This document shows, piece after piece, positions 3,001 to 63,748 of a stretch of DNA of 64,000 nt (position 1 is the stretch's first letter; each line of letters opens with the position of its first letter). The DNA is from Amoebophrya sp. A120 (taxonomy: Eukaryota; Protista; Dinoflagellata). A program made the translations under genes and the position numbers. The stretch spans positions 11,874,729 to 11,938,728 of the forward strand of contig CAJINV010000002.1 in NCBI GenBank assembly GCA_905178155.1, read 5' to 3'. The notes below the pieces were generated by a model that was given only the letters and a program-made list of their open reading frames with translations, was not told the origin of the DNA and made no database searches.

Positions 3001-6000
3001 GGGCTTTCCGCAAAACCAACACCATATGATGATGGCGCAAAACAACATGCACGGCATCGCCAACGGTGCTCAGCAAAATCAAGTCGGAATGCAGCAGCTG
3101 CCCGTTGCTTCCCAAGATCTCACCCAAGGCACGGAAGCACTCTACCAAGCAATGCGCATTCGCTTTGACGAGCTCAAGATACCCGGGGAGCTGATGATGA
3201 AAACAGTATTTCAAAATTTCCATACACTTTCTCGCCCTTTGTTGTACATGCACTTAGACATCATCTTCCAGGCTCGCAGCGTACTATCGAATCAAAATCT
3301 GGATGAAGAGACAGTGCAAAGTCTGCTTGCTTTATATAGTGTGCAAAACCATAATATCCGCAACAAAATCATAGGCGGAATATTGTATGCACCTCGTAGT
3401 CACCAACGAGATTGACGTGGAGGTGCAGCAGGTGCTAGCGAACGCTCCCGACAACAACATAGTGCAAGTGCGCGGACAGATGATGCGTAGTGCACAACAT
3501 CGTGGGGCGCAGCTTTTGGCCGCCTGGGCCGTGCGCGAGGATTTGTTCTTTGACGTAAAGAACCCTCCGACACTTACCGACCTCCAACAGACTATCATGG
3601 ATTGGTATAGCCGCGGCCAATGGCAGCAAGCGGATGGTACGTGGGGACGCAGGACCTTTAACGAAATCATCGCTGCACCTATGCACACGTACTTACCATT
3701 TTTCCCAATGATTATTTCTGACTAATTCTCAACTGATTTTTGCTCGCGGCGATCCGGATTGTTGCCGGCATGCTTGAGATGTCAAACTGAAATCTACTTT
3801 AACTTTTACAAAAACCCTTCTAGGGTAGTTGCCATGTTGAAGATGAGTCAGCTTAGTACTTAGAGGCTGTGCAACAATTGGACCCCCTTTCGCCAAGGCG
3901 AAAGGGGGGGGGGGTAGGTTGGTCCAATTCCGGAGGACGGGGGCTGGCACCCCGACGCAAGGGCGGCGGGGGCTCCCGTCGGTCTCGCCCCACAGACAAC
4001 AATCGAACGCCCGGCGGCTCTTCTTCGTGTGCCGCCTTCGCAGGTGGCGGCTGTTCGGTTGGTCGGCAGTAGGCCCACAGGCGTACGCAACACGGCCGAA
4101 ACCATTTGCCTGCTATCTATGGGCGAGTCCAGAACCGGGCGCGCCGTAGCATGTGCGTCGGGGCGGGCAGCCCTAGGAGGGCGGGCGCCCGCGGTGTTTT
4201 TCTTCACAGACATTCCGAGCAGCAAGGTGCATCGGGTCGATTGCGGGCGCCCAATGTCATGACCCCGGGCTCCCCGTGCTGCTTGGGGGGGGGTTTGACA
4301 AGTCGGTGGGCACATGGGGTCGGCCCGAAGTTTTTTTGCCCCGTGTTGTGAGGCGCAGGCGGAGGGGGTGGGGAGGCATCCATGCGCGCGCTGTCAGGAC
4401 CGGCGAGCACAGACGGAGGCATGCAGTGTGATGCAAATGTAGTCCGAACGGGCGCGCGCAGCGCGCCCCGCAAAATTTGCCACATTAGCACTACGCGCCC
4501 GCCACCACAAATAAAACGAACAGAACAAACCTGCTCGGTTTATCGGCAGCGGGCGCGCGCAGCGGGCCCCGCAAAATTTGCCACATTAGCATCACGCGCC
4601 CGCCACCACAAATAAAACGAACAGAACAAACCTGCTCGGTTTATCGGCTGCGGGCGCGCGCAACGCGCCCCGCAAAATTTGCCACATTAGCATTACGCGC
4701 CCGCAACCACAAATAAAACGAACAGAACAAACCTGCTCGGTTTATCGGCAGCGGGCGCGCGCGGCACGCCCCGCAAAAATTTCCACATTACCAGTACGCG
4801 CCCGCCGCCACAAATAAAACGAACAGAACAAACCTGCTCGGTTTATCGGGAGCAGGCGCGCGCAGCGCGGCCCGCAAAATTTTCCACATTACCATTACGC
4901 GCCCGCCACCACAAATAAAACAAACAGAACAAACCTGCTCGGTTTATCGGGAGCAGGCGCGCGCAGCGCGAATTTTTTTGAATTCCGGCAGCGCGAGCAC
5001 TGATCGCAGCTCAAGGCCTGCTCGCAGCGGGCACGCGCACCGCGCCCCGCAATTTTTTTCACTGCGCACAGCTCCCGGCGAAAGGGGGGGGGGAGGGGGG
5101 AGGTTGGTCTCCAGCGGGCCGCTACCCCCCCTTTCGCCATGGCGAAAGGGGGTCCAATTGTTGCACAGCCTCTTACATGTCTTTACGCTAAAAAATAGGA
5201 CTGGTGACGTGGCACCCGTGCCGTCACCCAGCCCGCCCACTTCGATTCCGGTCCGCGATCTGACAGAGGAGTTTCAGACGCAGCTGCATGGCACGGTATT
5301 GTGAAATTTTTGTTTTTTCATGTTGCGGTTTCATCAAAAGTTGTATGAGATTGTCGTAAGTGTCGTGTTGTAACTCTTGGAGTATCGCCTTTTGATCATG
5401 GGTTGTGAGTTGCTGGTGTAATTTAGTGCTGCTCAGCTCGAAAAAGTACTCTGTAGAAGTAGGAGCTCTCCTGGTTTTCGCAGATCTTCGCCCGATTTCA
5501 TCACGTTCTCTCGCTTGGGGTTTTTCGAAAACTTCACACGCGAGGAACTTGCGCCTGCGCAAACGATGGAAAAAAAGATCGATCCTCCACGCATTCTATT
5601 TACTCGTACAACCCGAAAGGACACTTCTCGCTCTTTCGCGAAGACGCAACGAAAGCCAGTTTGTATGTGTCTAATACTACGCACCTACACACCAGGTGGA
5701 GGGAATGCTGCAATACAATGCGCAACACATGGAGCATGCGCGCAAGGCGTTGGATGCTCTGATGACAGACCAGCTGGAGTGGGTTAAGGTGTTTAAGAAC
5801 GAGCAGGTGCTTCAGACGCTGTTCAGATCCAATCATCACGTTTTTAGCACGTGGCACCCCCACATCAACGGCCTTGTGAACCACATCAACGCCGTTTGGC
5901 ACACGAATCCCAACTTTGACTTCGTGGCGAATCTGGGTTCCCCGCACCACAAATTGCCAGACATGCCGGGGCTGAGCAGTCCCCTGGACCAGGCCACGAT

Positions 6001-12489: not shown

Positions 12490-15326
12490 ATGGCGGCGGT
12501 CGCAAGCACCGCCTCGGGCGGCGGGTTGAAAGTTTTCACCGCCGACGAGGTGGCCAAGCATAATACCTTTGGGGATCTGTGGTTGATCGTTGACAACAAG
12601 GTCTACGACGTGTCCAAATTTGCCAACGTCCACCCCGGTGGCAAGCATATCCTGCTCGACGTTCCGAACAACGATGCCACGGAATATTTCTACGCGTTCC
12701 ACGCAACGGACGTATTTTTCGACAAAATGTCTTTCATGATGCATATTAAGTTTCCCCCGATCATCTTCTTCAAAACGCCGAGGATTTTTTTTTTGGCTGG
12801 TATCGGTATGATCAGTGCTCCAGGTCTGCCCCGTCATTATGGTTTTTTCTTTTTTGAGCTGGTCTTTTTCCACCCAATTTCTCGTTTTCATTTTTCATAT
12901 GATGAAAATGCAGGTGCTTGACAAGTACCACAAAAAGTTGTGTATCGGCACTGTGGAGGGCAAGACCGAGCAAATCTATGAGCCGAAGCAGAAGGCCAAG
13001 GGCGGCAAGAAGCTGGATGTGGCCACCGCCCCGGCGGAGCAGCTGCTGAAGGAGCATCCGCTGCTGTGCCGCACACCCTTTGGCGAACCGGCAAGTATGA
13101 AGCGGTTCTACGCGAGCCCCTACCATAACGAGACGCACCTGCGATTTCGCCTCGGGTGCCGCGAGTTTTTCCACGAAATGCTACCGGAAGCGGAGGAGCT
13201 GGAAGAGAGTCAGGACTACATTCCCAACGAAATCTGGGAGGAGTTCGGAAAAACGGGCATGTTTGCTTGCTCCATCGGCGTCACCGCCATGCCGGCCGTG
13301 AAAAAACTGGGGTTGCCGCTCCCGGGAGGCATCAAGCCAGAGGAATTCGACTTCTTCCATGAGCAGATCCTCCATGAAGAAGCGGCAAGGATACTGCCAC
13401 CGAGGTAAGCAGTCAGGTTTGATACGTATATAGTACAAAACAATACGAATATTACTCTGGTGGGTCAACCTCTTATGCCCACGCCTCAACTTGATGACCC
13501 AGGATTTCTGCGAGTTGTGATGCTGTTCTCAGAAATAAACCAACGAAGCAAATTGTGATGAGCTAAAAACGTAGTTCAATTTCAATCAAAAATTTCAAAA
13601 TCCGATACAGCTTTCTGGATGGTATTTTTGCGGGTTTCAACATTGGTCTCCCCCCGATCATGAACTTCTATCACGGTCCCGACAAAATGGAGATGATTGC
13701 CAACATCCTGCTCGGCAAGAAAAAGGTTGCCCTCGCGATCACTGGTCCGGAGGCGGGTTCGGACGTGGCCAATCACCAGTGTATTGCGAAGTTTTCGGAA
13801 GACAAGAAGACCTTCACGGTGCGGGGCTTGAAGAAGTGGATCACCGGTGGCTGCCAGGCCGACTACTTTGTCACCGCGGTGCGTACGGGCAAGCCTGGCC
13901 TCAAAGGAATCAGCATGCTGTTGATCAAACGCGAGGACGGAAACGTGCTGACTAAGCAACTGTCAACCTCCTACGGGAAAACCGCAGCCACCGCACTGGT
14001 TCAGTTTGAGGACGCCAAGGTTCCGGTCGAGGGCCGTCTCATGGGCGTGAAGAAGGGAGACGAACTGAACAAGGGCTTCCAGTGCATCATGCTCAACTTC
14101 AACCACGAGCGGTGGATGATTTGGTAAGTATTCACTTCCACTCAGACTGTTTTTTTCTGACAATAAGTCAATCTTGACATGAACAGTAAAGTAAAGGATC
14201 ATGTTGAAATGTACTACGACGCTCAAGCATGAAATTTTTCTCGATTACATTCGAAAAGACCGATCGAGCAATGATCTTCCACAGCGCCAATGCTCTGGGC
14301 ATGCAACGCGTCGTAGTTTCGGATTGCCTCCAGTGGTTGACTATCAAATGTAAAAATGTCTGGGTCTGGAAGATTGCCAGGTTTGTCATGCATGTTTTGC
14401 ATGACCCCTGACGTCTGTGATGCATGCCCTAGCATCACAGATTTTGTGAGGGCTACCTGATGCCTATACCGCATGACAAATGCTCTTTCAGTGCAGCAAA
14501 ACTTGGACTCTCTTTCTTGCTGCTCATGCAATACAGATTTTTTTACAATCCAAAGCCAGCATGACAAACATGCATTCTTCCAGACCCAGACATTTTTACA
14601 TTTGATATTGACCCAGCGGAAGGCCTTCGGTCGACCGCTGTCGGACCAGCCGGTGCTGCGGTTCAAGTTTGGCCAGATGGTGGCTATCCTGAGTAAAAAC
14701 GTACCCACACCAGAGTTGTAATGCAGATTCGCAAAGACATGAAGACTTGTAATGCGCATCCCCATGAGAGCCATTTCCAATCGTGTTTTGGAATTTGTGA
14801 TGCTGTGAACAGGATGAGCAGCTGGATTTGTGATGCGGCTGCACTTGCTAACCTGCACTACACTGCAGAGTGCAACTTGTCATGCGTGACTCGCAAAACT
14901 CCTAGGTTTGTGTTGCAAAATCCTCATCCTGACTCTGGTGTGGGTGCGTTTTTACTCAGGATAGTGGCTGCTCTGGAGTCACTGCAGAGCTACATGGACC
15001 ACGTCACCTACCAGATGAAGGTGTACTACGACCGGGTGATGAGCGACCCGAAAACCTGGAAGACCCGGGATTACCTCGCGGGCGAGATCGGGCTGCTCAA
15101 GTACCAGACCACCCGCGTGAGCACCTTGCTCGCAGACAACGGGTGCCAGATTTTCGGCGGCCGGGCGGTCACCCGCACGGGCATGGGGAAGAAGATGGAG
15201 CGCTTCAACCGCATGTACAAAATCTCGTCCATCTACGGCGGCAGCGAGGAAATCATGGCCGACCTCGGGGTGCGACAAGCGCTGCGCGAGTGGACGCCCG
15301 AAGACAAACTGAAAGCCAAGCTGTAG
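12490..15326 (+). CDS. Cytochrome b5-domain / acyl-CoA dehydrogenase fusion with C-terminal PTS1-like AKL
   Basis: Exons 12490-12711, 12914-13404, 13611-14123, 14285-14341, 14613-14684, 14969-15326. b5 motif WLIVDNKVYDVSKFANVHPGG; ACAD motifs ALAITGPEAGSDV, RGLKKWITGG, NFNHERW, QRKAFGRPL, CQIFGGRAV, IYGGSEEIM. The last two introns are non-canonical. Confidence 0.92.
14342..14607. mobile_element. Introner-like non-canonical intron 1 (TIR element, 5-bp TSD TTGAC)
   Basis: 32-bp perfect TIR TATCAAATGTAAAAATGTCTGGGTCTGGAAGA; TTGAC at 14337-14341 and 14608-14612; removal restores QWLT|QRKAFG. Confidence 0.92.
14685..14963. mobile_element. Introner-like non-canonical intron 2 (TIR element, 5-bp TSD GTGGC)
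   Basis: TIR TATCCTGAGTAAAAACG(T/C)ACCCACACCAGAGT; GTGGC at 14680-14684 and 14964-14968; removal restores GQMVA|ALESLQ. Confidence 0.92.
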
Positions 15327-17775
15327 ATGCGAAAAATCGTTCAACATCATCTCATTTTTTATGGATGTACTACCCAGTTGTGCTTGCAGTCTCTGGCGGT
15401 GCAGCATCGCACAGCATGCAGCTGCGGCACCGTGAACTTCGGTCCAGGCACGAAGCAAGGCTGTTTTGTTTGTAGGACGTGTGGAAAGATTGATTCGATA
15501 CAAACCAGCACCTGTCACATAGGTCATGTAATTACACGTATATAGTAGAAAATTCGATTGATAATGAAGGTAAATGATAGGAAAAGAATATAACGCCCTT
15601 GTATCTTCAAAGTATAGGTTCTTTCTTTGTAGTTCTTGTTGAGTCAATTCTTCGAACCGTAAACACCGTATCGGAAACTAGTTGAAGAAATAGTACCAAG
15701 TGCACTAATGCCCTATGATGCAGGAAACTGAAACAATTTTCTAGACTTGTCAAAGGGAAGTTTAAATTTTATGGTAACCATCCAAAGCCGAATCGAGGGA
15801 CAGTCTTGCTTTGACGACCCTGGTTCGCAAGTTCTTAGAGGCAGTGATAGAAAACATGTCTCAACGAAGTAATCTTCAGTTCTTTGGTACCGAAAGAAAT
15901 TGTGCACAGCGTTGTATAGATGTAACTAAACCCTGAAAATCAAAATGACGCCGAATAAGGAAAGCATTAGAATGACTACACATGATATGATGATTCGCAA
16001 TCGCAGTGCATCTGCGGCGACAAAAGTAGTAGCCGGCCCTCGACTCTCACCCTCCTGTAGACTACCTAGCTCATTTTCCACCCGATTCGATGTTTCGTCA
16101 AGATTGTCCCATGATAAACGAGCGCAGCGCATGCTGCAGTTTCGGCGCTCGAAAATAATCCAGATAACAGTCGGCCATCGATGATATCGCATGTAAAATT
16201 TTCCAATAATTACCACTATGTTTATACAAAAGCCAGAAGGTGCGCGTTTGCAAAAAGAAAAAATTACAGACAAGAAGCGTGCGGGTGTAAATACCAATGC
16301 GGAACACAACTCTGACTGGGATTGGGACAACTTGTCGCCTCGAGTTAGGTTTATTGATTCGATAAAAAGCTATTTTTGTACGTTGGCTTTTTTGTTGAGA
16401 TCCAGCTAAAGGTTGAGGCGTCGAGAGGCCACATTCGCACATATGCCAAAAGGCACAGGGAAACTCAATAACGTCATTTTACGTTTCTGACAAAAGCTGC
16501 ATCAAGATCAGGGAAAACAAAGAAATAAACGATATAATAAGTGCTGCGAATTTTTCGGGGGATAAAGATTAAGATGCTGTTCACCTGTATAATCTGTGTT
16601 CATTATCCTGATCTACGTAGAGGAAAGATTTTATCACGCGCCTGGCTAGTAAACAAAAACCACGATCGAGCAAAGCGAAGTCCGAGAAAGCACCTGCTGC
16701 AAGGTGACGGTCAGCACGCATATCCATTTCTTCTCTGCATTAGCAAACTGATTGGTGAACACGGAGATGCAACACAAATACAGCAGTCTGCTTCTATGTC
16801 TACCTTCTAGAGATGATCGATACAACGTGTAAATACAGTTTCATTTATTCCACATGATTCCATGTTAGTAGCTCGGATTTAATACTTCGTAGTTGGTACT
16901 GATTTGATCGTCTGCAGAAACTAAACACGAAAAAAGAACATAAGCTTCTGGCAGCACGCGCAACGCCGCGCACCGGGTTTTTTTTTGAAGCAACACGCAC
17001 AAAAACCGAAAGTACCTGTACATCAGCAAACATATTGGACTTTGCTTTATTCAGCCTCTAACAAACTTTCCTTTATCCAGCTTCGTGCGCAATACGGACG
17101 CAGCCGCAGGAAGAGCAGACTTTTTGCCTGCGTGGTTCGCTGAAAAGGGCACGATCGCAAGCCGGGCGACAAGTTCCCGCATCTTTCCCTGCCTGCGGAC
17201 GCAACAATCTGGACGTAGAAGTGCAGTGCTCGTCGGACCCTGAAGAGCGAAAGCAAAGTGGAACACGTCGTGTACTCTCCTGATTTATTTCCACCTGGCG
17301 CGAATCTTGTTCGTCTTACCGGCCAGAGAGAAGCATCTTCCACCACCGGAGTCCTTGATTTTTCTCGTAGCGACGCGGCGGAGCATCTCTGAGGAGTGTA
17401 GAAGTGCTAGCCTCCTGCAATCAGGGTGGTAGGACCTTTTGAAGCGGCCGCATCACCTCCGACACGCAGCCCTTATTCTTCGCAGAAGAAACCGCAATAC
17501 CAATACACCAAGCAACGAACCAAATCTTATCTGTCACAACAATCGCAAGCAAGAAGCAAGTAGACGGCATGGATTTTGGATGCTGGCAGACAACCTGATA
17601 AGCTAGAATATTTGTAAAAATATATTACCGAGCTGAGCAGCAGGCGCAGGGAAACCACCTGCTATAGCAGCTTCCGACTTACGCGACCAGGGACGCCCCT
17701 GCAGTTCTGTGTGGATTGGTCAAAATAGAGGACGCAAAACGACGAAAGATCGCGGCCGACCCGCTCCCCGGAAAG

Positions 17776-42672: not shown

Positions 42673-44520
42673 ATGGTGGTGCCCCTGCCGCCAATCTACA
42701 TCACCCCGGTGCCTTCCGAGTACGCACTAAAATGTCGTCCCTGGTTCACCGTTTTCGCGTTTGTCATGCTGGTCGAATCCATCCAGAAGATGTTTCTGGA
42801 TCTCGAGATTTTTCCGGGTTTCATATCAAAATGAAAAATCCCCCCTCCCCATATCAAAACGGAAATTTGTGATGCTCATTTGTGACCACAAATCAGCTTT
42901 GTATTGCAGAGAGGCACTGCGGCCAGATCCCCAGGCTAGGTAGGGGCGTATGGGTCTAGTAGTTCAGCATGGCAAACGGCCCCCCTTTAGGCCCAACAGC
43001 ATGACAAATCGCTTCCACAATGGGGCGGAAGCTTCTGGCCTTGTCTTCTTGCAAGACAGATGTGATTTGTGACCTCAAATCCGCAACGCAAATTTTTGGA
43101 AACATACCTTTTCAATATGGGGAGGGGGGATTTTTCCTCTCAATATTTCATGGTGGCGATCCTGGCTGGCGTGGGGTTCTACTGCCTGCGCGACAAGTCC
43201 GTCGACATGCACTGTCTCATGACTTGGGGTAAGTATGTACTTGGCAGGGCGAGATGCTTCATTCACATTTTTTGTCAAGCGCAAGCATGACGCTCTGAAG
43301 TTCGCTGTACGACCCCACAGATCTTACATAGAGACCATAATTTCACTCGGTAGAAGCAACTAAAAGGGAACAGGTCGGTGGTGAATCGAATGCATTATGT
43401 TGAAGAAATGGATTTTCAAACTGAATCTTAATGCAGGCATGGTGTGCATGATCAATGGGGTTCTTACGGTGGTGTTGCTGATTGATCGAGTCGTGCGTCC
43501 CATGTCCGAGCCGCTCTTCGTCACGAGCAACGACCAACTGCGGGACAAAGGCGTTTGGGTCCACAACACGAAGTCCCTGATCCGCATCGCAAGTCCCGTA
43601 GCGATGTTGTGCGTCGCCGGGCTCACCTATCGGGTAAGTACCTACTGATCATGCTGATGTTTTGTACACCACGTCAACGGACGATCTTTCTTTATTTATT
43701 GCCTCTAAAGGTGCTAAAGGTGACGAATTTTAATGACATGTTTCTTACTTTATGAGGTTTACAACGAGGTGATGGATACCCTCGACGATATGGCGGCAGA
43801 CCAGCAGGTGCGAAATAATATGAAAGTGAAAAGAGTTGTGGGCGCGCAGCGACAGAAGCGTCTTCATGATGTGTTTATATCAGAAATATGTGAAAAATTC
43901 TTCATCTACATCTTGCTGTACGTCTGAGATCACAGGTTTTATCCGCAGCTGCGGATCAAGGTTTGATCCGCAGCAACATGCTCGCTTGTTTAAGTAAGCA
44001 TCACAGGCGGAAGATCACGTATGCGAAATTCAGCACTGCTATGTGACGAAGACGATGGTCATGTTGCTGCGCATCTACGGTTTTTCTTTTCCAAAACGAT
44101 TGCGATACAAGAGCAGCGAGAGCAATACGTCGCGGGGACAAAATATTCTTCGAATCTCGATCGGCTTTTTGTTGTTATATAATTCTAACGACGCATTTCC
44201 ATTTGCATTGCTTTGATTTTGATGGGCGAAGGGACTTTTCTGAGAACAATTTGAATTCAGTAATGAGAGCTACAAAGAACTACAATTTGCAGATGGTAGC
44301 TAAGTTGTGTCGCTAAATAGACGAGTGCCGGTTCCCACAACAGCAGAAGTAGAGCGAGATTTGTGGAAGTTTTTAAGCGAGCTATACAGCAGAGCAGACG
44401 CAGCGGCTGAACCAACGCCAGAGCGCAGGTGCGCCACAAAATACGAATGCCAGCAATACCGGCACGACGTTCACACCCTTTGGGGGAGTTGGTAATCAAT
44501 TGGGCGGAGAACTGGACTAA
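42673..44520 (+). CDS. Multi-pass membrane protein with C-terminal SHP-box-like motif (paralog 2)
   Basis: Exons 42673-42823, 43151-43228, 43437-43633, 43757-43807, an uncertain middle exon, ~44378-44520; MVVPLPPIYITPVPSEYALK, GVGFYCLRDKSVDMHCLMTWG, FTPFGGVGNQLGG match paralog 1. Confidence 0.78.
42824..43145. mobile_element. Introner-like non-canonical intron 3 (imperfect TIR, 5-bp TSD TTTCA)
   Basis: Left TATCAAAATGAAAAATCCCCCCTCCCCATATCAAAA vs right reverse complement TATTGAGAGGAAAAATCCCCCCTCCCCATATTGAAA; TTTCA at 42819-42823 and 43146-43150; removal gives PGF|MVAILAGVGFY, colinear with paralog 1. Confidence 0.9.
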
Positions 44521-48167: not shown

Positions 48168-48433
48168 CGATTCTACTTTTTTGCATTCCCATCATAAGCT
48201 GCTTCGTTCGTTTGTCAGCCACAGGCAAATCGTTTTCGTCGTGGTTGCAGACGACCATGGGGGTGTTGCCACAGCTGCTGGCGCTCTCGAAAATGAAATG
48301 CTCCAAAAGCACGAGTTTGCTGTGGTCCTTGACTCAAAAATTTTATTGCGATAGCAACCACGCCCTGGAACAAGGAAGGCAAGAAGTGGTTTCTGGACGA
48401 GTGGCTCCGCCGCTAGCAGATAGAGGGTATGCG

Positions 48434-48668
48434 TTGCAAACGTGTCAGTCTGGGTTTGGAAGAGTTTCGATGGTGATGCTGCCTCAGATTTCAAAGGGAA
48501 AGAAAAGAGAATCCGTATTGCAGAGCAGTTTTTTCTACACGGAGAGCGCATTTGTCATGCAGGAGAGGCATTAAAAACCCGATGCTAGAGCATGCATTGA
48601 CAGACCAGAGTGCCATGGTGCATGGCAAGCTTTGCAGAGTCCCAGACCCAGACATTTTGCATTTGATG
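48434..48668 (-). mobile_element. Diverged copy of introner 1 family, opposite orientation
   Basis: Colinear blocks shared with the reverse complement of 14342-14607: GTCTGGGTTTGGAAGA, AATCCGTATTGCAGAGCAG, GCATTTGTCATGC, GATGCTAGAGCATGCAT, CCAGACCCAGACATTTTGCATTTGAT. Confidence 0.75.
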
Positions 48669-51600: not shown

Positions 51601-51765
51601 CCTACATTCCGTCCAGAAACGGGACGAGGAGAACGCGCTTTCTGACTTCGGAAGAGTTTTCATTTTGGAAGACTTCTCACTCGACTCCGGTCCGTTTCCC
51701 GCAGGGCTTCGAACAGCGGAGTGAGAGGTCAGCGACCTCCCGCTTCTGAAGCATTTTCATTCTGG

Positions 51766-52077
51766 AAAAGTGAGAAATCAGAAAAGTGAGAAATCACTGA
51801 TTTCTCACTTCTGAAAAGTTTCCATTTTGAAAAAGTAAGAAGTCACTGACTTCTCACTTCTGAAAAGTTTTCATTTGGGAAAAGTGAGAAGTCACTGACT
51901 TCTCACTCTGTTTCTCGAACACCTTCGAGAAACGGAGTGAGAAATCAGTGATTTCTCACTTGTGAAAAATTCTCACTCCGGAGTCGGAGTCGCGTTCACT
52001 CTTTCCAGAGTGAGAATTTTTCAAAAGTGAGAAATCAGTGATTTCTCACTACTTTTCTCGAAGGTACTTCGAGCCCC
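51766..52077. repeat. Array of 25-bp palindromes next to the assembly gap
   Basis: AGTGAGAA(A/G)TCA(C/G)TGA(T/C)TTCTCACT at 51785, 51834, 51883, 51936, 52026. Confidence 0.9.
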
Positions 52078-52672
52078 NNNNNNNNNNNNNNNNNNNNNNN
52101 NNNNNNNNNNNNNNNNNNNNNNNNNNNNNNNNNNNNNNNNNNNNNNNNNNNNNNNNNNNNNNNNNNNNNNNNNNNNNNNNNNNNNNNNNNNNNNNNNNNN
52201 NNNNNNNNNNNNNNNNNNNNNNNNNNNNNNNNNNNNNNNNNNNNNNNNNNNNNNNNNNNNNNNNNNNNNNNNNNNNNNNNNNNNNNNNNNNNNNNNNNNN
52301 NNNNNNNNNNNNNNNNNNNNNNNNNNNNNNNNNNNNNNNNNNNNNNNNNNNNNNNNNNNNNNNNNNNNNNNNNNNNNNNNNNNNNNNNNNNNNNNNNNNN
52401 NNNNNNNNNNNNNNNNNNNNNNNNNNNNNNNNNNNNNNNNNNNNNNNNNNNNNNNNNNNNNNNNNNNNNNNNNNNNNNNNNNNNNNNNNNNNNNNNNNNN
52501 NNNNNNNNNNNNNNNNNNNNNNNNNNNNNNNNNNNNNNNNNNNNNNNNNNNNNNNNNNNNNNNNNNNNNNNNNNNNNNNNNNNNNNNNNNNNNNNNNNNN
52601 NNNNNNNNNNNNNNNNNNNNNNNNNNNNNNNNNNNNNNNNNNNNNNNNNNNNNNNNNNNNNNNNNNNNNNNN
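52078..52672. other. Assembly gap
   Basis: Run of N. Confidence 1.
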
Positions 52673-55600
52673 AGATTTGTTTTGTGCCGCCGATCTTCGT
52701 GCTGCTGCAGATGTTTGCTAAGCTTCAAAAGAACTACACCAGCGCGCCAAACCGATCGACTTGGCATGAATTGCGTCCCCCGAGGGCGTTCGGAGAAGTT
52801 TTCCGGCGAAAAGGGGGGGGCTTTTGCGAGTCATGTATCTTTCCAATGTAGCTCCTCGGAGCATAGTCTTCTCGCCCATTCCAGCCCAGCTCTTCGGAGC
52901 CTAGATTTTAGTTTCTCTGGTCTGCAAAAGGGTCTAGCTCTCTCTGTTTCAGCTGCAAACTTCTGACAAAGGCAAATCTGTTTTACGGCCGACGTGGTGG
53001 CTAGGATTGCCTGACTGCTGCGTTGAGCCCAGCCTGCGTGACGGCGTGCAGTCTATAAATTCGGTTTACTTAGCGCCCCTGTTGCAGCAGGAGATAACAC
53101 TGAGAGTATACATCGACCGGCGGTAGTTAGACGGGGATGACTAGAATAGGCCCGAAGGGCTTAGCTTATCACATCCCCCGCACTGCTGTTGCATCAGCAG
53201 GAGCGGCGACATGCGTGACGTTCACGGGGCCCACTGAGGTGGCTAGAAAAAATTTGCATTGCGGCCCGCGGGTCGCTTAACTGCCATGGCCGCCACAGCT
53301 GCGTGATCGTGCAACTGCGTGGCCGTGTAGTACATGCCGCGTAGCGCTGGCGCCCGCCTCCCTGTAACTTTAGTGGTAGCGCACAAGACCGCTGCGCGGC
53401 TCGGCGGCATTAACCGGCCCTGAGTTCCTGCGTGTATGCACCTCGGCCACAGGAACCAGAGGTGGTAGGTTTGTTTTTACTAAAAAGAAAAACTAGTGCT
53501 CAAAAACAAAAGAAAGCAAAGCTACACTCTTGAAAAAAGTCAACGGAGATTCAGCTCCCAGTGCTGTGCATCGCATGCCGCCCCCAGGGTGGTGTGTGTG
53601 TACACGCCCGCGGCGCTACTAGATGGATCCAAACTTTATTTTCAACAAAAGGGCCCAAGGACAGACGTCAATCAGGCCAAGGTGAGATGCGTGAAGAAGT
53701 AATAGCTTTGCATTGTTAGAAAAGAAGCTAGTATGTAGGTGATTGATAACTTAGACAGGGTTTAGGGTTCGACGTGTGCCCCCGTCTGGTGCGTGAAGTT
53801 AGTACGTTGACCGGTATAAGACTCTCGCCGAAAATTGGATCGAATCGATACACCCGTCGTCCGATTCGATCCAAGAAGCTGGGCAAAAGTTGAAACAGAA
53901 ACGAGAAAAAGCAGGAGCCCGCGCTTCAGATAGATCCCAGGCTCTGGCTGCCCTTATGGGCCCACTTCGTTCCGCAACGCCGGGAATTGGATCGAATCGA
54001 TACCCCCGGCGTCCGATTCGATCCAAAAATCTGGCCAAAAGTTGAAACAGAAACGAGAAAAAGCAGGAGCCGGCGCCGCAGAGAGATCCCAGGCTCTGAC
54101 TGCCCTTATGGGCCCACTTCCACAACGCCGAAAATTGGATCGAATCGATACCCGCGTCGTCCGATTCGATCCAAAATAAAATCTGGGCAAAAGTTGAAAC
54201 ATAAACAAGAAAAAGCAGGAGCCGGCGCTGCAGATGGATTGGCTCCAGGCTCTGGCTGCCGTTATGGGCCCACTTCGTTCCACAACGCCGGAAATTGGAT
54301 CGAATCGATACCCCCGTCGTCCGATTCGATCCGAAAATCTGGGCAAAAGTTGAAACAGAAACGAGAAAAAGCAGGAGCCCGCGCTTCAGATAGATTCCAG
54401 GCTCTGGCTGCCCTTATGGGCCCAGTTCCACAACGCCGGAAATTGGATCGAATCGATACCCCCGTCGTCCGATTCGATCCGAAAATCTGGGCAAAAGTTG
54501 AAACAGAAACGAGAAAAAGCAGGAGCCCGCGCTTCAGATAGATTCCAGGCTCTGGCTGCCCTTATGGGCCCACTTCCGCAACGCCGGAAATTGGATCGAA
54601 TCGATACCCCCGGCGTCCGATTCGATCCAAAAATCTGGGCAAAAGTTGAAACAGAAACGCGAAAAAGCAGGAGCCGGCGCTGCAGATAGATTCCAGGCTC
54701 TGGCTGCCGTTATGGGCCCACTTCCACAACGCCGCAAATTGGATCGAATCGATACCCCCGTCGTCCGATTCGATCCAAAAATCTGGGCAAAAGTTGAAAC
54801 AGAAACGCGAAAAAGCAGGAGCCGGCGCTGCAGATAGATTCCAGGCTCTGGCTGCCGTTATGGGCCCACTTCCACAACGCCGAAAATTGGATCGAATCGA
54901 TACCCCCGTCGTCCGATTCGATCCAAAAATCTGGGCAAAAGTTGAAACATAAACAAGAAAAAGCAGGAGCCGGCGCTTCAGATAGATTCCAGGCTCTGAC
55001 TGCCGTTATGGGCCCACTTCCACAACGCCGGAAATTGGATCGAATCGATACCCCCGGCGTCCGATTCGATCCGAAAATCTGGGCAAAAGTTGAAACAGAA
55101 ACGAGAAAAAGCAGGAGCCGGCGCTTCAGATAGATTCCAGGCTCTGGCTGCCGTTATGGGCCCACTTCCACAACGCCGGAAATTGGATCGAATCGATACC
55201 CCCGTCGTCCGATTCGATCCGAAAATCTGGGCAAAAGTTGAAACAGAAACGAGAAAAAGCAGGAGCCGGCGCTTCAGATAGATTCCAGGCTCTGGCTGCC
55301 GTTATGGGCCCACTTCCACAACGCCGGAAATTGGATCGAATCGATACCCCCGTCGTCCGATTCGATCCGAAAATCTGGGCAAAAGTTGAAACAGAAACGA
55401 GAAAAAGCAGGAGCCCGCGCTTCAGATAGATTCCAGGCTCTGGCTGCCCTTATGGGCCCACTTCCACAACGCCGGAAATTGGATCGAATCGATACCCCCG
55501 GCGTCCGATTCGATCCAAAAATCTGGGCAAAAGTTGAAACAGAAACGCGAAAAAGCAGGAGCCGGCGCTGCAGATAGATTCCAGGCTCTGGCTGCCGTTA

Positions 55601-58496
55601 TGGGCCCACTTCCACAACGCCGGAAATTGGATCGAATCGATACCCCCGTCGTCCGATTCGATCCGAAAATCTGGGCAAAAGTTGAAACAGAAACGAGAAA
55701 AAGCAGGAGCCCGCGCTTCAGATAGATTCCAGGCTCTGGCTGCCCTTATGGGCCCACTTCCGCAACGCCGGAAATTGGATCGAATCGATACCCCCGGCGT
55801 CCGATTCGATCCAAAAATCTGGGCAAAAGTTGAAACAGAAACGCGAAAAAGCAGGAGCCGGCGCTGCAGATAGATTCCAGGCTCTGGCTGCCGTTATGGG
55901 CCCACTTCCACAACGCCGGAAATTGGATCGAATCGATACCCCCGGCGTCCGATTCGATCCAAAAATCTGGGCAAAAGTTGAAACAGAAACGCGAAAAAGC
56001 AGGAGCCGGCGCTGCAGATAGATTCCAGGCTCTGGCTGCCGTTATGGGCCCACTTCCACAACGCCGCAAATTGGATCGAATCGATACCCCCGTCGTCCGA
56101 TTCGATCCAAAAATCTGGGCAAAAGTTGAAACAGAAACGAGAAAAAGCAGGAGCCGGCGCTTCAGATAGATTCCAGGCTCTGGCTGCCGTTATGGGCCCA
56201 CTTCCACAACGCCGGAAATTGGATCGAATCGATACCCCCGTCGTCCGATTCGATCCGAAAATCTGGGCAAAAGTTGAAACAGAAACGAGAAAAAGCAGGA
56301 GCCGGCGCTTCAGATAGATTCCAGGCTCTGGCTGCCGTTATGGGCCCACTTCCACAACGCCGGAAATTGGATCGAATCGATACCCCCGTCGTCCGATTCG
56401 ATCCGAAAATCTGGGCAAAAGTTGAAACAGAAACGAGAAAAAGCAGGAGCCCGCGCTTCAGATAGATTCCAGGCTCTGGCTGCCCTTATGGGCCCACTTC
56501 CACAACGCCGGAAATTGGATCGAATCGATACCCCCGGCGTCCGATTCGATCCAAAAATCTGGGCAAAAGTTGAAACAGAAACGCGAAAAAGCAGGAGCCG
56601 GCGCTGCAGATAGATTCCAGGCTCTGGCTGCCGTTATGGGCCCACTTCCACAACGCCGGAAATTGGATCGAATCGATACCCCCGTCGTCCGATTCGATCC
56701 GAAAATCTGGGCAAAAGTTGAAACAGAAACGAGAAAAAGCAGGAGCCCGCGCTTCAGATAGATTCCAGGCTCTGGCTGCCCTTATGGGCCCACTTCCGCA
56801 ACGCCGGAAATTGGATCGAATCGATACCCCCGGCGTCCGATTCGATCCAAAAATCTGGGCAAAAGTTGAAACAGAAACGCGAAAAAGCAGGAGCCGGCGC
56901 TGCAGATAGATTCCAGGCTCTGACTGCCGTTATGGGCCCACTTCCACAACGCCGAAAATTGGATCGAATCGATACCCCCGTCGTCCGATTCGATCCAAAA
57001 ATCTGGGCCAAAGTTGAAACATAAACAAGAAAAAGCAGGGGCCGGCGCTTCAGATAGATTCCAGGCCCTGACTGCCGTTATGGGCCCACTTTCTCCCACA
57101 ACGCCGAAAATTGAAGCGAATCGATGCCCCCGGCGTCCGATTCGATCCAAAAATCTGGGCAAAAGTTGAAACAGAAACGCGAAAAAGCAGGAGCCGGCGC
57201 TGCAGATAGATTCCAGGCTCTGACTGCCGTTATGGGCCCACTTCCACAACGCCGAAAATTGGATCGAATCGATACCCCCGTCGTCCGATTCGATCCAAAA
57301 ATCTGGGCCAAAGTTGAAACATAAACAAGAAAAAGCAGGGGCCGGCGCTTCAGATAGATTCCAGGCCCTGACTGCCGTTATGGGCCCACTTTCTCCCACA
57401 ACGCCGAAAATTGAAGCGAATCGATGCCCCCGGCGTCCGATTCGATCCAAAAATCTGGGCAAAAGTTGAAACAGAAACGCGAAAAAGCAGGAGCCGGCGC
57501 TGCAGATAGATTCCAGGCTCTGACTGCCGTTATGGGCCCACTTCCACAACGCCGAAAATTGGATCGAATCGATACCCCCGTCGTCCGATTCGATCCAAAA
57601 ATCTGGGCCAAAGTTGAAACATAAACAAGAAAAAGCAGGGGCCGGCGCTTCAGATAGATTCCAGGCCCTGACTGCCGTTATGGGCCCACTTTCTCCCACA
57701 ACGCCGAAAATTGAAGCGAATCGATGCCCCCGTCGTCCGATTCGATCCAAAAATCTGGGCAAAAGTTGAAACAGAAACGCGAAAAAGCAGGAGCCGGCGC
57801 TGCAGATAGATTCCAGGCTCTGACTGCCGTTATGGGCCCACTTCCACAACGCCGAAAATTGGATCGAATCGATACCCCCGTCGTCCGATTCGATCCAAAA
57901 ATCTGGGCCAAAGTTGAAACATAAACAAGAAAAAGCAGGGGCCGGCGCTTCAGATAGATTCCAGGCCCTGACTGCCGTTATGGGCCCACTTTCTCCCACA
58001 ACGCCGAAAATTGAAGCGAATCGATGCCCCCGTCGTCCGATTCGATCCAAAAATCTGGGCAAAAGTTGAAACAGAAACGCGAAAAAGCAGGAGCCGGCGC
58101 TGCAGATAGATTCCAGGCTCTGGCTGCCGTTATGGGCCCACTTCGCAACGCCGGAAATTGAATCGAATCGATACCCCCGGCGTCCCATTCGATCCAAAAA
58201 TCTGGGCAAAAGTTGAAACACAAACAAGAAAAAGCAGGAGCCGGCGCTGCAGATAGTTTCCAGGCTCTGACTGCCGTTATGGGCCCACTTCCACAACGCC
58301 GAAAATTGGATCGAATCGATACCCCCGTCGTCCGATTCGCTCCAAAAATCCGGGCAAAAGTTGGAACACAAACAAGAAAAAGCAGGAGCCCGCGCTTCAG
58401 ATAGATTCCAGGCTCTGGCTGCCCTTATGGGCCCACTTCCGCAACGCCGGAAATTGGATCGAATCGATACCCCCGGCGTCCGATTCGATCCAGAAA

Positions 58497-59841
58497 TCAG
58501 GTGGAGGACAGTGGGGCCAGTTCGTGGGCTAAAAACTGGCTAAATTTTTCGGGATTTCCCCGAGGCCCCAAGGCCCGGGCACCTCTCTGGCTTGGCCCGT
58601 GTGCCGCCGCCCAGGTTCGTGTCTTATCGCTCCCCCCTGTCTGGTTCGTCTCCGCCTTGTCGGTCCCATGGGGTTTGTTCGTGTCTGTGGGCCACTGGTA
58701 CAATGCGGCCGCGGTGCCTGCTCCTACCTTGTGTTTTGTGTTTGGCCGCGCGCCAAGTTTTAAAATTTAAAAATTGGCCCGGTTTTCCATAGAAATGTGG
58801 AGACGGCCAATTTCGACATGTCTTCCGACGCTGGTTTTCCGGATATTTTGCACCACGCAAAATATCCGGCAGCGTGGTCATGTGTGTTGCAGGGGAAGGC
58901 ATTATCTCAGGCACAACAGGCTCGAGATGGTGTCTGTCACTATCTCGGCCAAGCCCTGGGGGTTGCCTCTCCTTATAATTGTTCTGCATCGCGCTCCGCG
59001 CTGTGTTGTGTTTGTCTTTCTGATGACGTCGACCTTCGTCGCAGGATTCTTGTTCTAAATGTGGCTTTGGAAATATAGAAGTCCAGAGGACTTCCATGTT
59101 TCCAAAGCCGCGGGATTCACACTTTTTCATCTTCGAAGTCGGCGGCTAAATCTGCAAGTTTGTGACTTCCTTCCCGAAATCACTGTACTCGCGAATTTAG
59201 CCGTTCGAGGCGAAGATGAAAGGAGTGTGAATCCCGCAAAGTTTAGAACAAGAATTAGAAGGGCAATTTAGCGCATGACTTAGCCATGCGATTTAGAACA
59301 AAAAATAGAATAGGATTTAGAATAGGATTTAGCCGGCCGATTTAGCACACAATTTAGCGGGCCAAATTAGAAAGGATTTTCCGCGCTTTTTGCTAAACTG
59401 CCAATTTAGCAAAAAGCGCGGAAGGCTAAATCGTTTGGGGTGGTGGAAATGTGGTGGGGAAATATAATAACCATTCGCGCATGGGATGGTGGCCCACTGA
59501 TTTCCGGGGGCCAAACACATTTCCGCCGGCGCCGGCTTCCGTTTGGGTCTGTCCTTCTTGGGTTCAAGGGCTTCCGCCTTCGGGCATTTCGTTTCCATGT
59601 CTATCCCCCATGCGCCATGGGGTGTCGTCTCGTTCTGTGCGCGCTCCGTCCGGGCCGCCGCAAAATAGCCGTCGCAAACTCCGCTGGGGTTTTGTTTTCT
59701 TTTGCCCACGCCGCGCGGGCTTACTCTTTTCCTTCGGCGGCAACGCCACCACGGTCGCCTTTGTTTGCCCGGACTTTTTAAAAATCCCGAAAAAATTAGC
59801 CAAAATTTAGCGGGCGAAGTCGCCCCACGCCCTCCATCTGA
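58497..59841. mobile_element. Non-autonomous TIR element A inserted in the satellite (TCA...TGA, 6-bp TSD)
   Basis: Imperfect ~60-bp TIR TCAG(G/A)TGGAGG..GTGGGGC..TTCG..GCTAAA..TGGCTAA.TTTTTCGGGATTT; flanks CAGAAA (58491-58496) / CAAAAA (59842-59847); removal restores the satellite unit. Confidence 0.8.
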
Positions 59842-62444
59842 CAAAAATCTGGGCAAAAGTTGAAACAGAAACGCGAAAAAGCAGGAGCCGGCGCTGCAGA
59901 TAGATTCCAGGCTCTGACTGCCGTTATGGGCCCACTTCCACAACGCCGAAAATTGGATCGAATCGATACCCCCGTCGTCCGATTCGATCCAAAAATCTGG
60001 GCAAAAGTTGAAACACAAACAAGAAAAAGCAGGGGCCGGCGCTTCAGATAGATTCCAGGCTCTGACTGCCGTTATGGGCCCACTTCCATCCCCAACGCCG
60101 AAAAAAAATTGGATCGAATCGATACCCCCGTCGTCCGATTCGATCCGAAAATCTGGGCAAAAGCTGAAACAGAAACGAGAAAAAGCAGGAGCCCGCGCTT
60201 CAGATAGATTCCAGGCTCTGGCTGCCCTTATGGGCCCACTTCCGCAACGCCGGAAATTGGATCGAATCGATACCCCCGGCGTCCGATTCGATCCAAAAAT
60301 CTGGGCAAAAGCTGAAACAGAAACGAGAAAAAGCAGGAGCCCGCGCTTCAGATAGATTCCAGGCTCTGGCTGCCCTTATGGGCCCACTTCCGCAACGCCG
60401 GAAATTGGATCGAATCGATATCCCCGGCGTCCGATTCGATCCAAAAATCTGGGCAAAAGTTGAAACAGAAACGCGAAAAAGCAGGAGCCGGCGCCGCAGA
60501 TAGATTCCAGGCTCTGACTGCTGTTATGGGCCCACTTCCACAACGCCGAAAATTGGATCGAGTGAATCGATACCCCCGGCGTCCGATTCGATCCAAAAAT
60601 CTGGGCAAAAGTTGAAACACAAACAAGAAAAAGCAGGAGCCGGCGCTTCAGATAGAGTCCAGGCTCTGACTGCCGTTATGGGCCCACTTCCACAACCAAC
60701 GCCGAAAATTGGATCGAATCGATACCCCCGGCGTCCGATTCGATCCAAAAATCTGGGCAAAAGTTGAAACACAAACAAGAAAAAGCAGGAGCCGGCGCTT
60801 CAGATAGAGTCCAGGCTCTGACTGCCGTTATGGGCCCACTTCCACAACCAACGCCGAAAATTGGATCGAATCGATACCCCCGGCGTCCGATTCGATCCGA
60901 AAATCTGGGCAAAAGTTGAAACATAAACAAGAAAAAGCAGGAGCCGGCGCTTCAGATAGATTCCAAACTCTGACTGCCGTTATGGGCCCACTTCCACAAC
61001 GCCGGAAATTGGATCGAGTCGCTACCCCCGTCGTCCGATTCGGTCCAAAAATCTGGGCAAAAGTTGAAACACAAACAAGAAAAAGCAGGAGCCGGCGCTG
61101 CAGATAGATTCCAGGCTCTGACTGCCGTTATGGGCCCACTTCCACAACGCCGAAAATTGGATCGAATCGATACCCCCGGCGTCCGATTCGCTCCAAAAAT
61201 CTGGGCAAAAGTTGGAACACAAACAAGAAAAAGCAGGAGCCCGCGCTTCAGATAGCTTCCAGGCTCTGGCTGCCGTTATGGGCCCCCTTCCACAACGCCG
61301 GAAATTGGGCCGAGTCTATCGATACCCCCGTCGTCCGATTCGATCCGAAAATCTGGGCAGAAGTTGAAACAGAAACGAGAAAAAGCAGGAGCCCGCGCTT
61401 CAGATAGATTCCAGGCTCTGGCTGCCGTTATGGGCCCACTTCCACAACGCCGGAAATTGGATCGAATCGATACCCCCGGCGTCCGATTCGATCCAAAAAT
61501 CTGGGCAAAAGTTGAAACAGAAACGCGAAAAAGCAGGAGCCGGCGCTGCAGATAGATTCCAGGCTCTGACTGCCGTTATGGGCCCACTTCCGCAACGCCG
61601 GGAATTGGATCGAATCGATACCCCCGTCGTCCGATTCGATCCAAAAATCTGGGCAGGAGTTGAAACATAAACAAGAAAAAGCATGAGCCGGCACTTCAGA
61701 TAGCTTCCAGGCTCTGACTGCCGTTATGGGCCCACTTCCACAACGCCGGAAATTGAAGCGAATCGATACCCCCGCCGTCCGATTCGATCCGAAAATCTGG
61801 GCAAAAGTTGAAACAGAAACGCGAAAAAGCAGGAGCCCGCGCCTCAGATAGATTCCAGGCTCTGGCTGCCCTTATGGGCCCACTTCCGCAACGCCGGAAA
61901 CTGGATCGAATCGATATCCCCGGTGTCCGATTCGATCCAAAAATCTGGGCAAAAGTTGAAACAGAAACGCGAAAAAGCAGGAGCCGGCGCTGCAGATAGA
62001 TTCCAGGCTCTGACTGCCGTTATGGGCCCTGGATCGAATCGATATCCCCGGCGTCCGATTCGATCCAAAAATCTGGGCAAAAGTTGAAACAGAAACGCGA
62101 AAAAGCAGGAGCCGGCGCTGCAGATAGATTCCAGGCTCTGACTGCCGTTATGGGCCCTGGATCGAATCGATATCCCCGGCGTCCGATTCGATCCAAAAAT
62201 CTGGGCAAAAGTTGAAACAGAAACGCGAAAAAGCAGGAGCCGGCGCCGCAGATAGATTCCAGGCTCTGAGCTGACTGCCGTTATGGGCCCACTTCCACAG
62301 CGCCGAAAATTAGATCGAATCGATACCCCCGTTGTCCGATTCGATCCAAAAATCTGGGCAAAAGTTGAAACATAAACAAGAAAAAGCAGGAGCCGGCGCT
62401 TCAGATAGCTTCCAGGCTCTGACTGCCGTTATGGGCCCACTTCC

Positions 62445-63748
62445 TCATGCGGAGACACCCCGGGCGGATTTCTGTTCTAAAATTCCGCTAATTTTTCCGG
62501 TTTTTCAAAAATTCCGGGCGCCCTTTCCACCAGGCCGGGGAGGCCGCCGCCGGGGGCGCCCGCTTGCTGTACTCCCCCACCGCGTGCCCAGCGTCGCCAT
62601 GGTGTTTCGGTCAATGGGCTTAGCGGTGGGGCGCCCGTTTTTGTCTCTTGGGATTCGGCGTGGCGGGTTTTAAAATTTAAAAATTTGGGCAGGTTTCTTG
62701 GGTAATTGCCGCCGCGCAATTTCAAGGCGAGCGCAGGGGGGAATAGGTGGTGGCGGTTGGGGCAAGTGCGATTTTGTTTATGTTTGTGGTAGGAGGGTCG
62801 ACGTGGGGTTGTGAATTCCCTGGAGATGCGAAGAGGCGCAGCTTGTGCGTGCCTCTTCGCATCTTCGCATTTTGTTCTACAGCTCGAGACAATATCATAT
62901 TCGTATGTCGCGGAGCTGGAGATGATGTTCGTGAGAGTGAACATCATCTCCAGCAGCGCCGAAAACAAATCTCGAGTTGTCAGGCATTGGATGTTCGCGT
63001 GAAGCGAAACCGGAAGTCTTCCGGTTTCGCTTCCGCTTTTGGTGTCCCGAAATCTTCTACTCCGACTTCTAAAATCGCCAAATGGCGATTTTATGTGGGA
63101 TTTTGCGCTACCTGCAATTTTAGAGAAGTATTATAACTTCCGAAATTGCAGTGCGCGCAACGGAATTAAAGGATTTTTAGAGACGAAATTAAAGGGCGGA
63201 GTTAAAGGATTTTTTAAAGGCCTTTTTAGAGGCCATTTTAGAGGCGGCTTTTCGAGACGGGTTTTAGAGGCCCGTTTTAGAGGCCCACTTTCGAGGCCGG
63301 CTTTAGAGACCGGCTTTAGAGGCCGGTTTTAGAGGCCCGCTTTAGAGGCCGCTTTTAGAGGCCAAAATTAGAGGCGCACTTTAGAGGCCGAAATTAGAAG
63401 TCCACTTCGTAAGCGGCTTCTGCAGCGGGCTTGTAGTTTCGGCCTGTCTTTCACATGGGATCGTCGCGACTAAGTAGTCATGGCAGCGATCCGGTGTGCA
63501 GGCTTTCTGGGTGATCTCTTGTTCTTTCTTCTCTTCTTCGCGATCGTCTTCCGGTCCAGGGGTGTTCTTTCCTCATCGCGGAATTTCGTCTGTGCGCCGC
63601 GTCGCCTATTTCCTTTTGTGACTTCGGCGCCGCCCTCTTCATTCCCATGGGCGTGCCACCAGGGTTTTTGGGTCCTTGCTTTTTTTGTAAAACCGGAAAA
63701 ATTAGAAGAATATTAGAGGCCGAGGCCGCCCGGGCGTTTTCCGCATGA
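62445..63748. mobile_element. Non-autonomous TIR element B inserted in the satellite (TCA...TGA, 6-bp TSD)
   Basis: Imperfect ~65-bp TIR TCATGCGGA.A...CCCGGGCGG...TCTAA.ATTC..CTAATTTTTCCGGTTTT; perfect ACTTCC at 62439-62444 and 63749-63754; removal restores GGGCCCACTTCCACAACG. Confidence 0.85.

What the first reader, a model, noticed from the sequence alone, without database searches (positions are those of the whole stretch)
14680..14968. Second, different TIR intron only 72 nt downstream
Seen: a 279-bp unit with TIR TATCCTGAGTAAAAACG(T/C)ACCCACACCAGAGT and perfect GTGGC duplication; removal gives GQMVAALESLQ. The registers include GT...TA and TG...AG, but not GT and AG together. Its TIR differs from intron 1 yet shares the skeleton TATC-N4-GTAAAAA-N-GT and the 5-bp duplication length. 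Inference: two independent insertions in one otherwise intact gene argue that both are spliced out rather than inactivating.
Basis: partly seen in the sequence, partly recalled or inferred. Interest (0 to 1): 0.8.

Follow-up and report, generated by a model that had tools for sequence, protein, structure and literature searches.

The report
Known Amoebophrya transposon-intron, cleanly removed
A 279-base mini-transposon sits in a coding exon of a fatty-acid-oxidation gene of the marine parasite Amoebophrya A120 and is cleanly missing from transcript assemblies although it has no GT-AG ends; it is one copy of this strain's already published 'introner' introns, likely removed by a modified spliceosome that reads the element's ends.

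Summary
Real, but already published. The element (14685-14963; 31/32-nt inverted repeats; GTGGC duplicated) interrupts a cytochrome b5/acyl-CoA dehydrogenase gene 72 nt after a sister element. A spliced transcript contig joins 14679 to 14964 (284 nt skipped), a second sample agrees, the DNA-like run does not show the joint, and no GT14680-AG14978 joint appears. The spliced model is identical to a public Amoebophrya sp. A120 protein, so this intron is already in the public gene model. Its ends fit the published A120 introner motif (TAT, 7 nt, AAA; Farhat 2021); Gozashti 2025 class such families as TIR DNA elements. In a related assembly 56 of 66 full-length hits carry a perfect 5-bp duplication of near-random sequence; copies insert in either orientation (15 vs 19), 94 of 104 exonic elements have no canonical register, and 218 of 220 share a short internal motif. 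Splicing chemistry, cut register and transposase stay unknown. This scan noted the same system before on other DNA of this genome (8 notes listed).

The parts
14685..14963 (.). Element 2 (the finding): 279-bp non-autonomous TIR element, introner
   Evidence: dispersed copies
14685..14716 (+). Left terminal inverted repeat, 32 nt, TAT + 7 nt + A-run
14932..14963 (-). Right terminal inverted repeat, 31/32 match to the left
14680..14684 (+). 5-bp target-site duplication, left copy
14964..14968 (+). 5-bp target-site duplication, right copy
14680..14963 (+). Skipped 284 nt, leftmost of 7 equivalent registers (rightmost 14686-14969); true cut site not resolvable from this junction
   Evidence: joint 14679 to 14964, 'both' = 6
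14716..14885 (+). Five copies of the internal motif YTGT[ACG]ATGC (14716, 14747, 14795, 14828, 14877), shared across introner families; candidate transposase-binding sites (inference)
14608..14679 (+). 72-nt exon between elements 1 and 2
14342..14607 (.). Element 1: 266-bp sister introner of another family, TTGAC duplication, also precisely removed
12490..15327 (+). Host gene: cytochrome b5 / acyl-CoA dehydrogenase fusion, 570 aa, six exons, three GT-AG introns and two introners

Best explanation
This is a non-autonomous DNA transposon that inserted into a coding exon of an Amoebophrya A120 gene with a 5-bp duplication, and the element plus one duplication copy is precisely missing from transcript assemblies, likely because a modified major spliceosome reads the inverted-repeat ends instead of GT-AG. 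Shown: anatomy, dispersed copies, precise 284-nt loss in spliced contigs of two samples, restored protein. Inferred: (1) insertion by a cut-and-paste transposase supplied in trans (TIRs, constant 5-bp duplication of near-random sequence, shared internal motif); (2) removal at RNA level in the cell, not during cDNA synthesis; (3) the signal lies in the TIRs, which read TAT..AAAA at the 5' end and TTTT..ATA at the 3' end in either orientation and pair into a long stem, so the cut falls at a set distance from the ends whatever the target; (4) the catalyst is the major spliceosome (U2/U4/U5/U6 reported present, U1 not found; Farhat 2021), about 0.6 likely given RNA-level removal.
For: Joint 14679 to 14964, 284 skipped, depth 135.5 in X3, 0 in X1, X9, X10. 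In X3 and X5 one contig lacks the three GT-AG introns and element 1, and holds exactly 125 letters (53+72) between 14122 and 14964. Model from these joints is identical to P0001, Amoebophrya sp. A120. 100 of 101 aligned homologues have 9 residues across the junction; the GT-AG alternatives would give 4 or 13. 56 of 66 full-length hits in another assembly have a perfect 5-bp duplication, 7 more 4/5 (at least 5 sites counted twice). 153 different 5-mers among 182 perfect duplications. Removal of element plus 5 nt keeps frame in 128 of 158 same-strand junctions (220 scored). Orientation unbiased: 15 same, 19 opposite, p 0.61; 94 of 104 exonic elements lack GT-AG, GC-AG and AT-AC registers. Published motif match.
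Against: All junction evidence is cDNA-derived contigs from one study (two samples; RNA status is the tool's guess, backed by the loss of GT-AG introns); contigs drop rare forms; raw-read run X21 did not cover the gene. Hairpin plus direct repeat is the signature of reverse-transcriptase skipping. A120 has a paralogue (P0004, 81% identical over the query exon), so this copy need not be essential. Nothing here tests the spliceosome (no lariat, no snRNA). No transposase found in 74 loci or viral contigs; Farhat et al. found none in A120. My register test was inconclusive. Strand and frame calls in the other assembly rest on a self-trained codon model, with no RNA.
Confidence: 0.8

Rival explanations
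1. RNA-level removal is real but non-spliceosomal: a nuclease/ligase pair or domesticated transposase cuts at the base of the stem, as proposed for euglenid nonconventional introns (recalled comparison).
For: Strong stem bringing the ends together; no dinucleotide rule; orientation independence; U1 not detected in A25 or A120.
Against: Same gene and mRNA carry ordinary GT-AG introns; 83 of 89 spliceosomal proteins reported present and 15% of canonical A120 introns share the DR/IR layout; no such enzyme identified.
Confidence: 0.3
2. The joined form is a reverse-transcription artefact (template switch across a hairpin between direct repeats); the gene is disrupted or the element is retained in mRNA.
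For: Geometry equals that of 'falsitrons', seen in up to 70% of cDNA reads (PMC8240250 passages); only cDNA-type data here; a paralogue exists.
Against: One unbroken 3226-nt contig at one depth runs through all five junctions and no exon-into-element contig of this locus is listed for X3 (tables cut); retention gives a stop; the reading frame is otherwise intact; tens of thousands of exonic copies are reported genome-wide, which a genome could not carry unspliced (inference).
Confidence: 0.05
3. The element is removed through nearby ordinary GT-AG sites (14680-14978, -5 aa; or 14693-14964, +4 aa).
For: Both are in frame.
Against: Only the 284-nt joint is listed; piece lengths exclude both in two samples; 100 of 101 homologues fit precise removal. 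Minor use cannot be excluded from contigs.
Confidence: 0.02
4. The element is excised from DNA during the life cycle, as ciliate internal eliminated sequences are.
For: Precise loss of element plus one repeat resembles DNA-level excision (recalled).
Against: DNA-like run X1 reads from both flanks into the elements at single-copy depth and shows no joint.
Confidence: 0.02

Closest known systems
Introner elements (IEs) among non-canonical introns of Amoebophrya sp. A120 (Farhat et al. 2021, PMC7789003; seen: abstract, sections 10, 11, 12, 16, 32, passages, supplement legends)
   Same: Same strain by an identical protein; IR starts TAT, 7 nt, then 3 or more A; 3-5-nt direct repeat at the boundary; about 240 nt mean length; non-GT-AG; hairpin; repeated.
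   Different: Nothing of kind. The arm is 32 nt against the 8-20 nt motifs they called; I did not find orientation independence or the internal motif in the parts read (figures and Table S7 content not visible).
A120 introner families classed as 'TIR DNA, superfamily unknown' (Gozashti et al. 2025, PMC12130899; seen: passages, 19 of 58 A120 rows of supplementary file 8)
   Same: Short TIR elements, mostly non-canonical splice sites, non-autonomous; one listed family has 278-279 bp and 30-nt TIRs (fam124).
   Different: Could not assign this copy to a numbered family: the TIR string was not found in 12 of 14 supplement files searched; their automated TSD calls vary from 2 to 5.
Euglenid nonconventional introns (seen: search listing and abstract starts)
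   Same: Non-canonical borders with a stem joining the intron ends.
   Different: Different lineage; here the intron is a recognisable repeated TIR element with a target duplication.
Falsitrons, RT-slippage artefacts (Schulz et al. 2021, PMC8240250; seen: passages)
   Same: Hairpin flanked by direct repeats, joined form in cDNA.
   Different: There the unjoined form is the functional exon; here the unjoined form breaks a conserved frame.

Membership tests
Amoebophrya A120 introner element | Lies in the A120 genome | tested here: met
   Spliced model identical to P0001, named Amoebophrya sp. A120
Amoebophrya A120 introner element | Inverted repeat beginning TAT, 7 nt, at least 3 A | tested here: met
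   Both arms fit
Amoebophrya A120 introner element | Direct repeat of 3-5 nt at the exon/intron boundary | tested here: met
   5-nt repeat
Amoebophrya A120 introner element | Removed from transcripts with non-GT-AG ends | tested here: met
   (cDNA-type contigs); registers
Amoebophrya A120 introner element | Repeated in the genome | tested here: met
   X1: many different flanks on both ends, summed depth 10^5 or more against about 43 in flanks (not a copy number); 74 loci in a related assembly
Non-autonomous TIR DNA transposon (MITE) | TIRs, constant-length target duplication, no coding capacity | tested here: met
Non-autonomous TIR DNA transposon (MITE) | Cognate autonomous element with the same ends | tested here: inconclusive
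Non-autonomous TIR DNA transposon (MITE) | Empty site in a relative's DNA | tested here: inconclusive
   X9 and X10 hold element copies but not this gene; homologous proteins are uninterrupted
Canonical U2 (GT-AG/GC-AG) or U12 (AT-AC) intron | Terminal dinucleotides in some equivalent register | tested here: not met
   None of 7 registers
Spliceosomal intron of any kind | Lariat with branch adenosine; snRNP dependence | not testable with these tools
   No raw reads on this locus
RT-slippage artefact (falsitron) | Joined form absent from direct RNA sequencing | not testable with these tools
   No direct RNA run among the 23 listed

The most novel reading that the evidence does not exclude
All TAT...ATA families are products of one undescribed transposase that binds the shared internal YTGT[ACG]ATGC repeats and makes random 5-bp duplications, and Amoebophrya A120 has rewired its splicing so that the transposon end itself, read alike in either orientation, replaces both GT and AG: a splice code set by distance from a hairpin end, making any exonic insertion silent.
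Probability: 0.4. Interest if true: 0.65.

Novelty: already known. Interest (0 to 1): 0.17.

Why it matters
This single copy adds little: the class is published for this strain and the intron is already in the public gene model. The system matters because how A120 removes tens of thousands of non-GT-AG introns, apparently without U1, and what moves them, were open in the papers read. This gene is a compact test substrate: two introners of different families 72 nt apart beside three ordinary introns. The orientation-independence and shared-motif counts narrow the signal to the terminal repeats and give a bait for the missing transposase.

Tried and rejected
No whole genome was held, so copy number and a genome-wide transposase search were not possible. 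Raw-read run X21 (same species label) gave no coverage of the exons; its 103 reads lay on element ends of other loci. Two TIR patterns gave 0 hits in viral contigs. Long TIR-bounded copies proved to be nested insertions. Register test from mismatched duplications: a first look suggested G on the left copy at position 5, but with element calls independent of the duplication it was 4 left vs 1 right (p 0.375) among 32 strand-confident elements with 1-2 mismatches (of 177; 215 called), and codon scores favoured neither copy: inconclusive. No strand asymmetry of G at position 5 in perfect duplications (39 vs 41 of 138); AG at positions 3-4 was 16 vs 8 for its mirror, too few to use. An 81-nt internal period in the element was weak (0.37 identity) and TRF did not report it. 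Literature searches listed no paper that resolves the A120 splicing mechanism; only the open library was searched.

Full report
Observation. The sequence holds a 279-bp unit at 14685-14963 whose arms match at 31 of 32 positions, flanked by GTGGC on both sides. As RNA it folds into a long stem (-140.3 kcal/mol, z -9.5). A sister unit (14342-14607, TTGAC duplication) lies 72 nt upstream. A TAT-anchored scan of the window gave 5 TIR pairs, 3 with a perfect duplication; 20 shuffles gave 0 with 4/5 or better. Removal of element plus one repeat (284 nt) restores the frame; retention gives a stop. Seven registers are equivalent and none is GT-AG, GC-AG or AT-AC. Two in-frame GT-AG alternatives exist nearby: 14680-14978 (-15 nt) and 14693-14964 (+12 nt).

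Host gene and organism. The exons match Pfam Cyt-b5, Acyl-CoA_dh_N, _M and _1. The best hit is P0001, 570 aa, 100% identical, named Amoebophrya sp. A120; next come P0002 and Amoebophrya A25 and A120 homologues. The model built from the transcript joints equals P0001 letter for letter, so the public annotation already treats both elements as introns. Of 101 aligned homologues over 450 aa (from 120 listed), 100 have 9 residues across the junction, as precise removal gives; the alternatives give 4 or 13.

Transcript evidence. Of 23 runs listed I laid 6. In X3 and X5 (two samples, one study; RNA status guessed by the tool) one contig lacks the three GT-AG introns and element 1, and carries exactly 125 letters between 14122 and 14964, which is 53 + 72. 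Laid again on 14612-15330, X3 shows the joint 14679 to 14964, 284 skipped, depth 135.5, equal to the exon depth; X1, X9 and X10 show 0. No joint to 14979 or 14965 is listed (15 of 18 joints shown, in order of position). X1 reads from the flanks into both elements, so the DNA keeps them. X21 raw reads did not cover the exons. Contigs show the main form only.

The family. An exact scan with the left arm found 74 loci in metagenome contigs, all with one assembly prefix. 66 full-length hits (68-97% identical): 56 perfect 5-bp duplications, 7 with 4/5, 3 others, one of them an 8-bp duplication; at least 5 sites are counted twice. In these 316 kb an end-agnostic scan gave 361 calls, 218 starting with TAT; their arms read TAT[C/G], 4 variable bases, G, one base, AAAA; 182 perfect duplications hold 153 different 5-mers (the set is biased to this family by the way it was fetched). 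A TAT-anchored scan gave 239 elements; 78 in 25 loci against 0 in their shuffles. With a self-trained codon model, 158 of 220 junctions had the same strand on both sides and 128 of these kept frame after removing element plus 5 nt (14 and 16 shifted). Among 123 confident exonic sites, relatives of this element lay 15 in the same and 19 in the opposite orientation to the host gene (p 0.61; all sites 32 vs 31), and 94 of 104 with perfect duplications had no canonical register. The motif YTGT[ACG]ATGC or its complement occurs in 218 of 220 elements, 12.1 per kb against 1.35 outside, and in all three window elements although elements 1 and 2 share no blastn similarity.

Mechanism. Insertion: constant TIR skeleton, constant 5-bp near-random duplication and repeated internal motif point to a cut-and-paste transposase acting in trans (inference); none was found in the loci, where long copies were nested insertions, or in viral contigs. 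Removal: since the target is arbitrary and orientation free, the signal cannot lie in the duplication or in a strand-specific interior; it must lie in the TIRs, as sequence, as stem, or both (inference). I favour a modified major spliceosome because ordinary introns share the mRNA and most spliceosomal parts are reported present; a nuclease/ligase route is the main rival. RT slippage has the same geometry and is not formally excluded, but is unlikely given one unbroken contig and a frame that needs removal. Earlier notes of this scan propose a cut one base before and four after the element; that is one of the 7 registers here (14684-14967), this junction cannot test it, and my test on mismatched duplications was inconclusive.

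Comparison. Farhat et al. 2021 (PMC7789003; abstract, sections 10-12, 16, 32, passages, supplement legends) report over 60% non-canonical introns, and A120 introners with IR 'TAT, seven less-conserved nucleotides, at least three A' and 3-5-nt direct repeats, 29,850 copies by HMM, no U1, no transposase in A120. Gozashti et al. 2025 (PMC12130899; passages, 12 of 14 supplement files searched, 19 of 58 A120 rows read) list 58 A120 families; most rows read are TIR DNA of unknown superfamily. PMC11282704 names Amoebophrya only in its references. Figures, Table S7 content and two unsearched files may hold the orientation or motif observations, so I do not claim them as new.

Verdict. Observation confirmed, interpretation supported, class already known and already annotated, and noted repeatedly by this scan on other DNA of this genome. 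Interest 0.17; the open mechanism would deserve more if solved.

Noticed in passing
window 42824-43145: Third introner (322 bp, TTTCA duplication, another family) in an apparent coding exon; removal reads in frame by eye. No RNA laid.
   Followed up: partly
window about 48428-48667: Degenerate element-1-like copy (69% over 161 nt) with decayed ends and no clean duplication; would be an informative junction if transcribed.
   Followed up: partly
window 13405-13610: The ordinary GT-AG intron 2 contains one copy of the introner internal motif (13515); chance or an old introner.
   Followed up: no
window 3862-5173: 1.3-kb element with 49-nt, 98% inverted arms of another type, holding a 101-bp tandem array.
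   Followed up: no
window 53826-62444: 148-bp satellite array (about 31 + 15 copies) interrupted by a 1.3-kb inverted-arm element at about 58511-59828 and followed by another at 62445-63748 with a 6-bp duplication ACTTCC.
   Followed up: no
window 51765-53000: Palindromic 49-bp repeats followed by a 1-kb bin with GC 0.20; not read.
   Followed up: no
L067 3001-5861; L028 1547-2930; L020 3502-4708: Introners carrying nested insertions of about 2.6, 1.1 and 0.9 kb while keeping both ends and the 5-bp duplication.
   Followed up: partly
L007 3001-3280: A copy of this family flanked by an 8-bp rather than 5-bp duplication.
   Followed up: no
window 14342-14375 (reads of run X21): About 98 raw RNA reads carry an element-1-type end followed by one and the same foreign sequence, also seen in X3, while the gene itself has no reads: an abundant RNA that retains an introner.
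   Followed up: no
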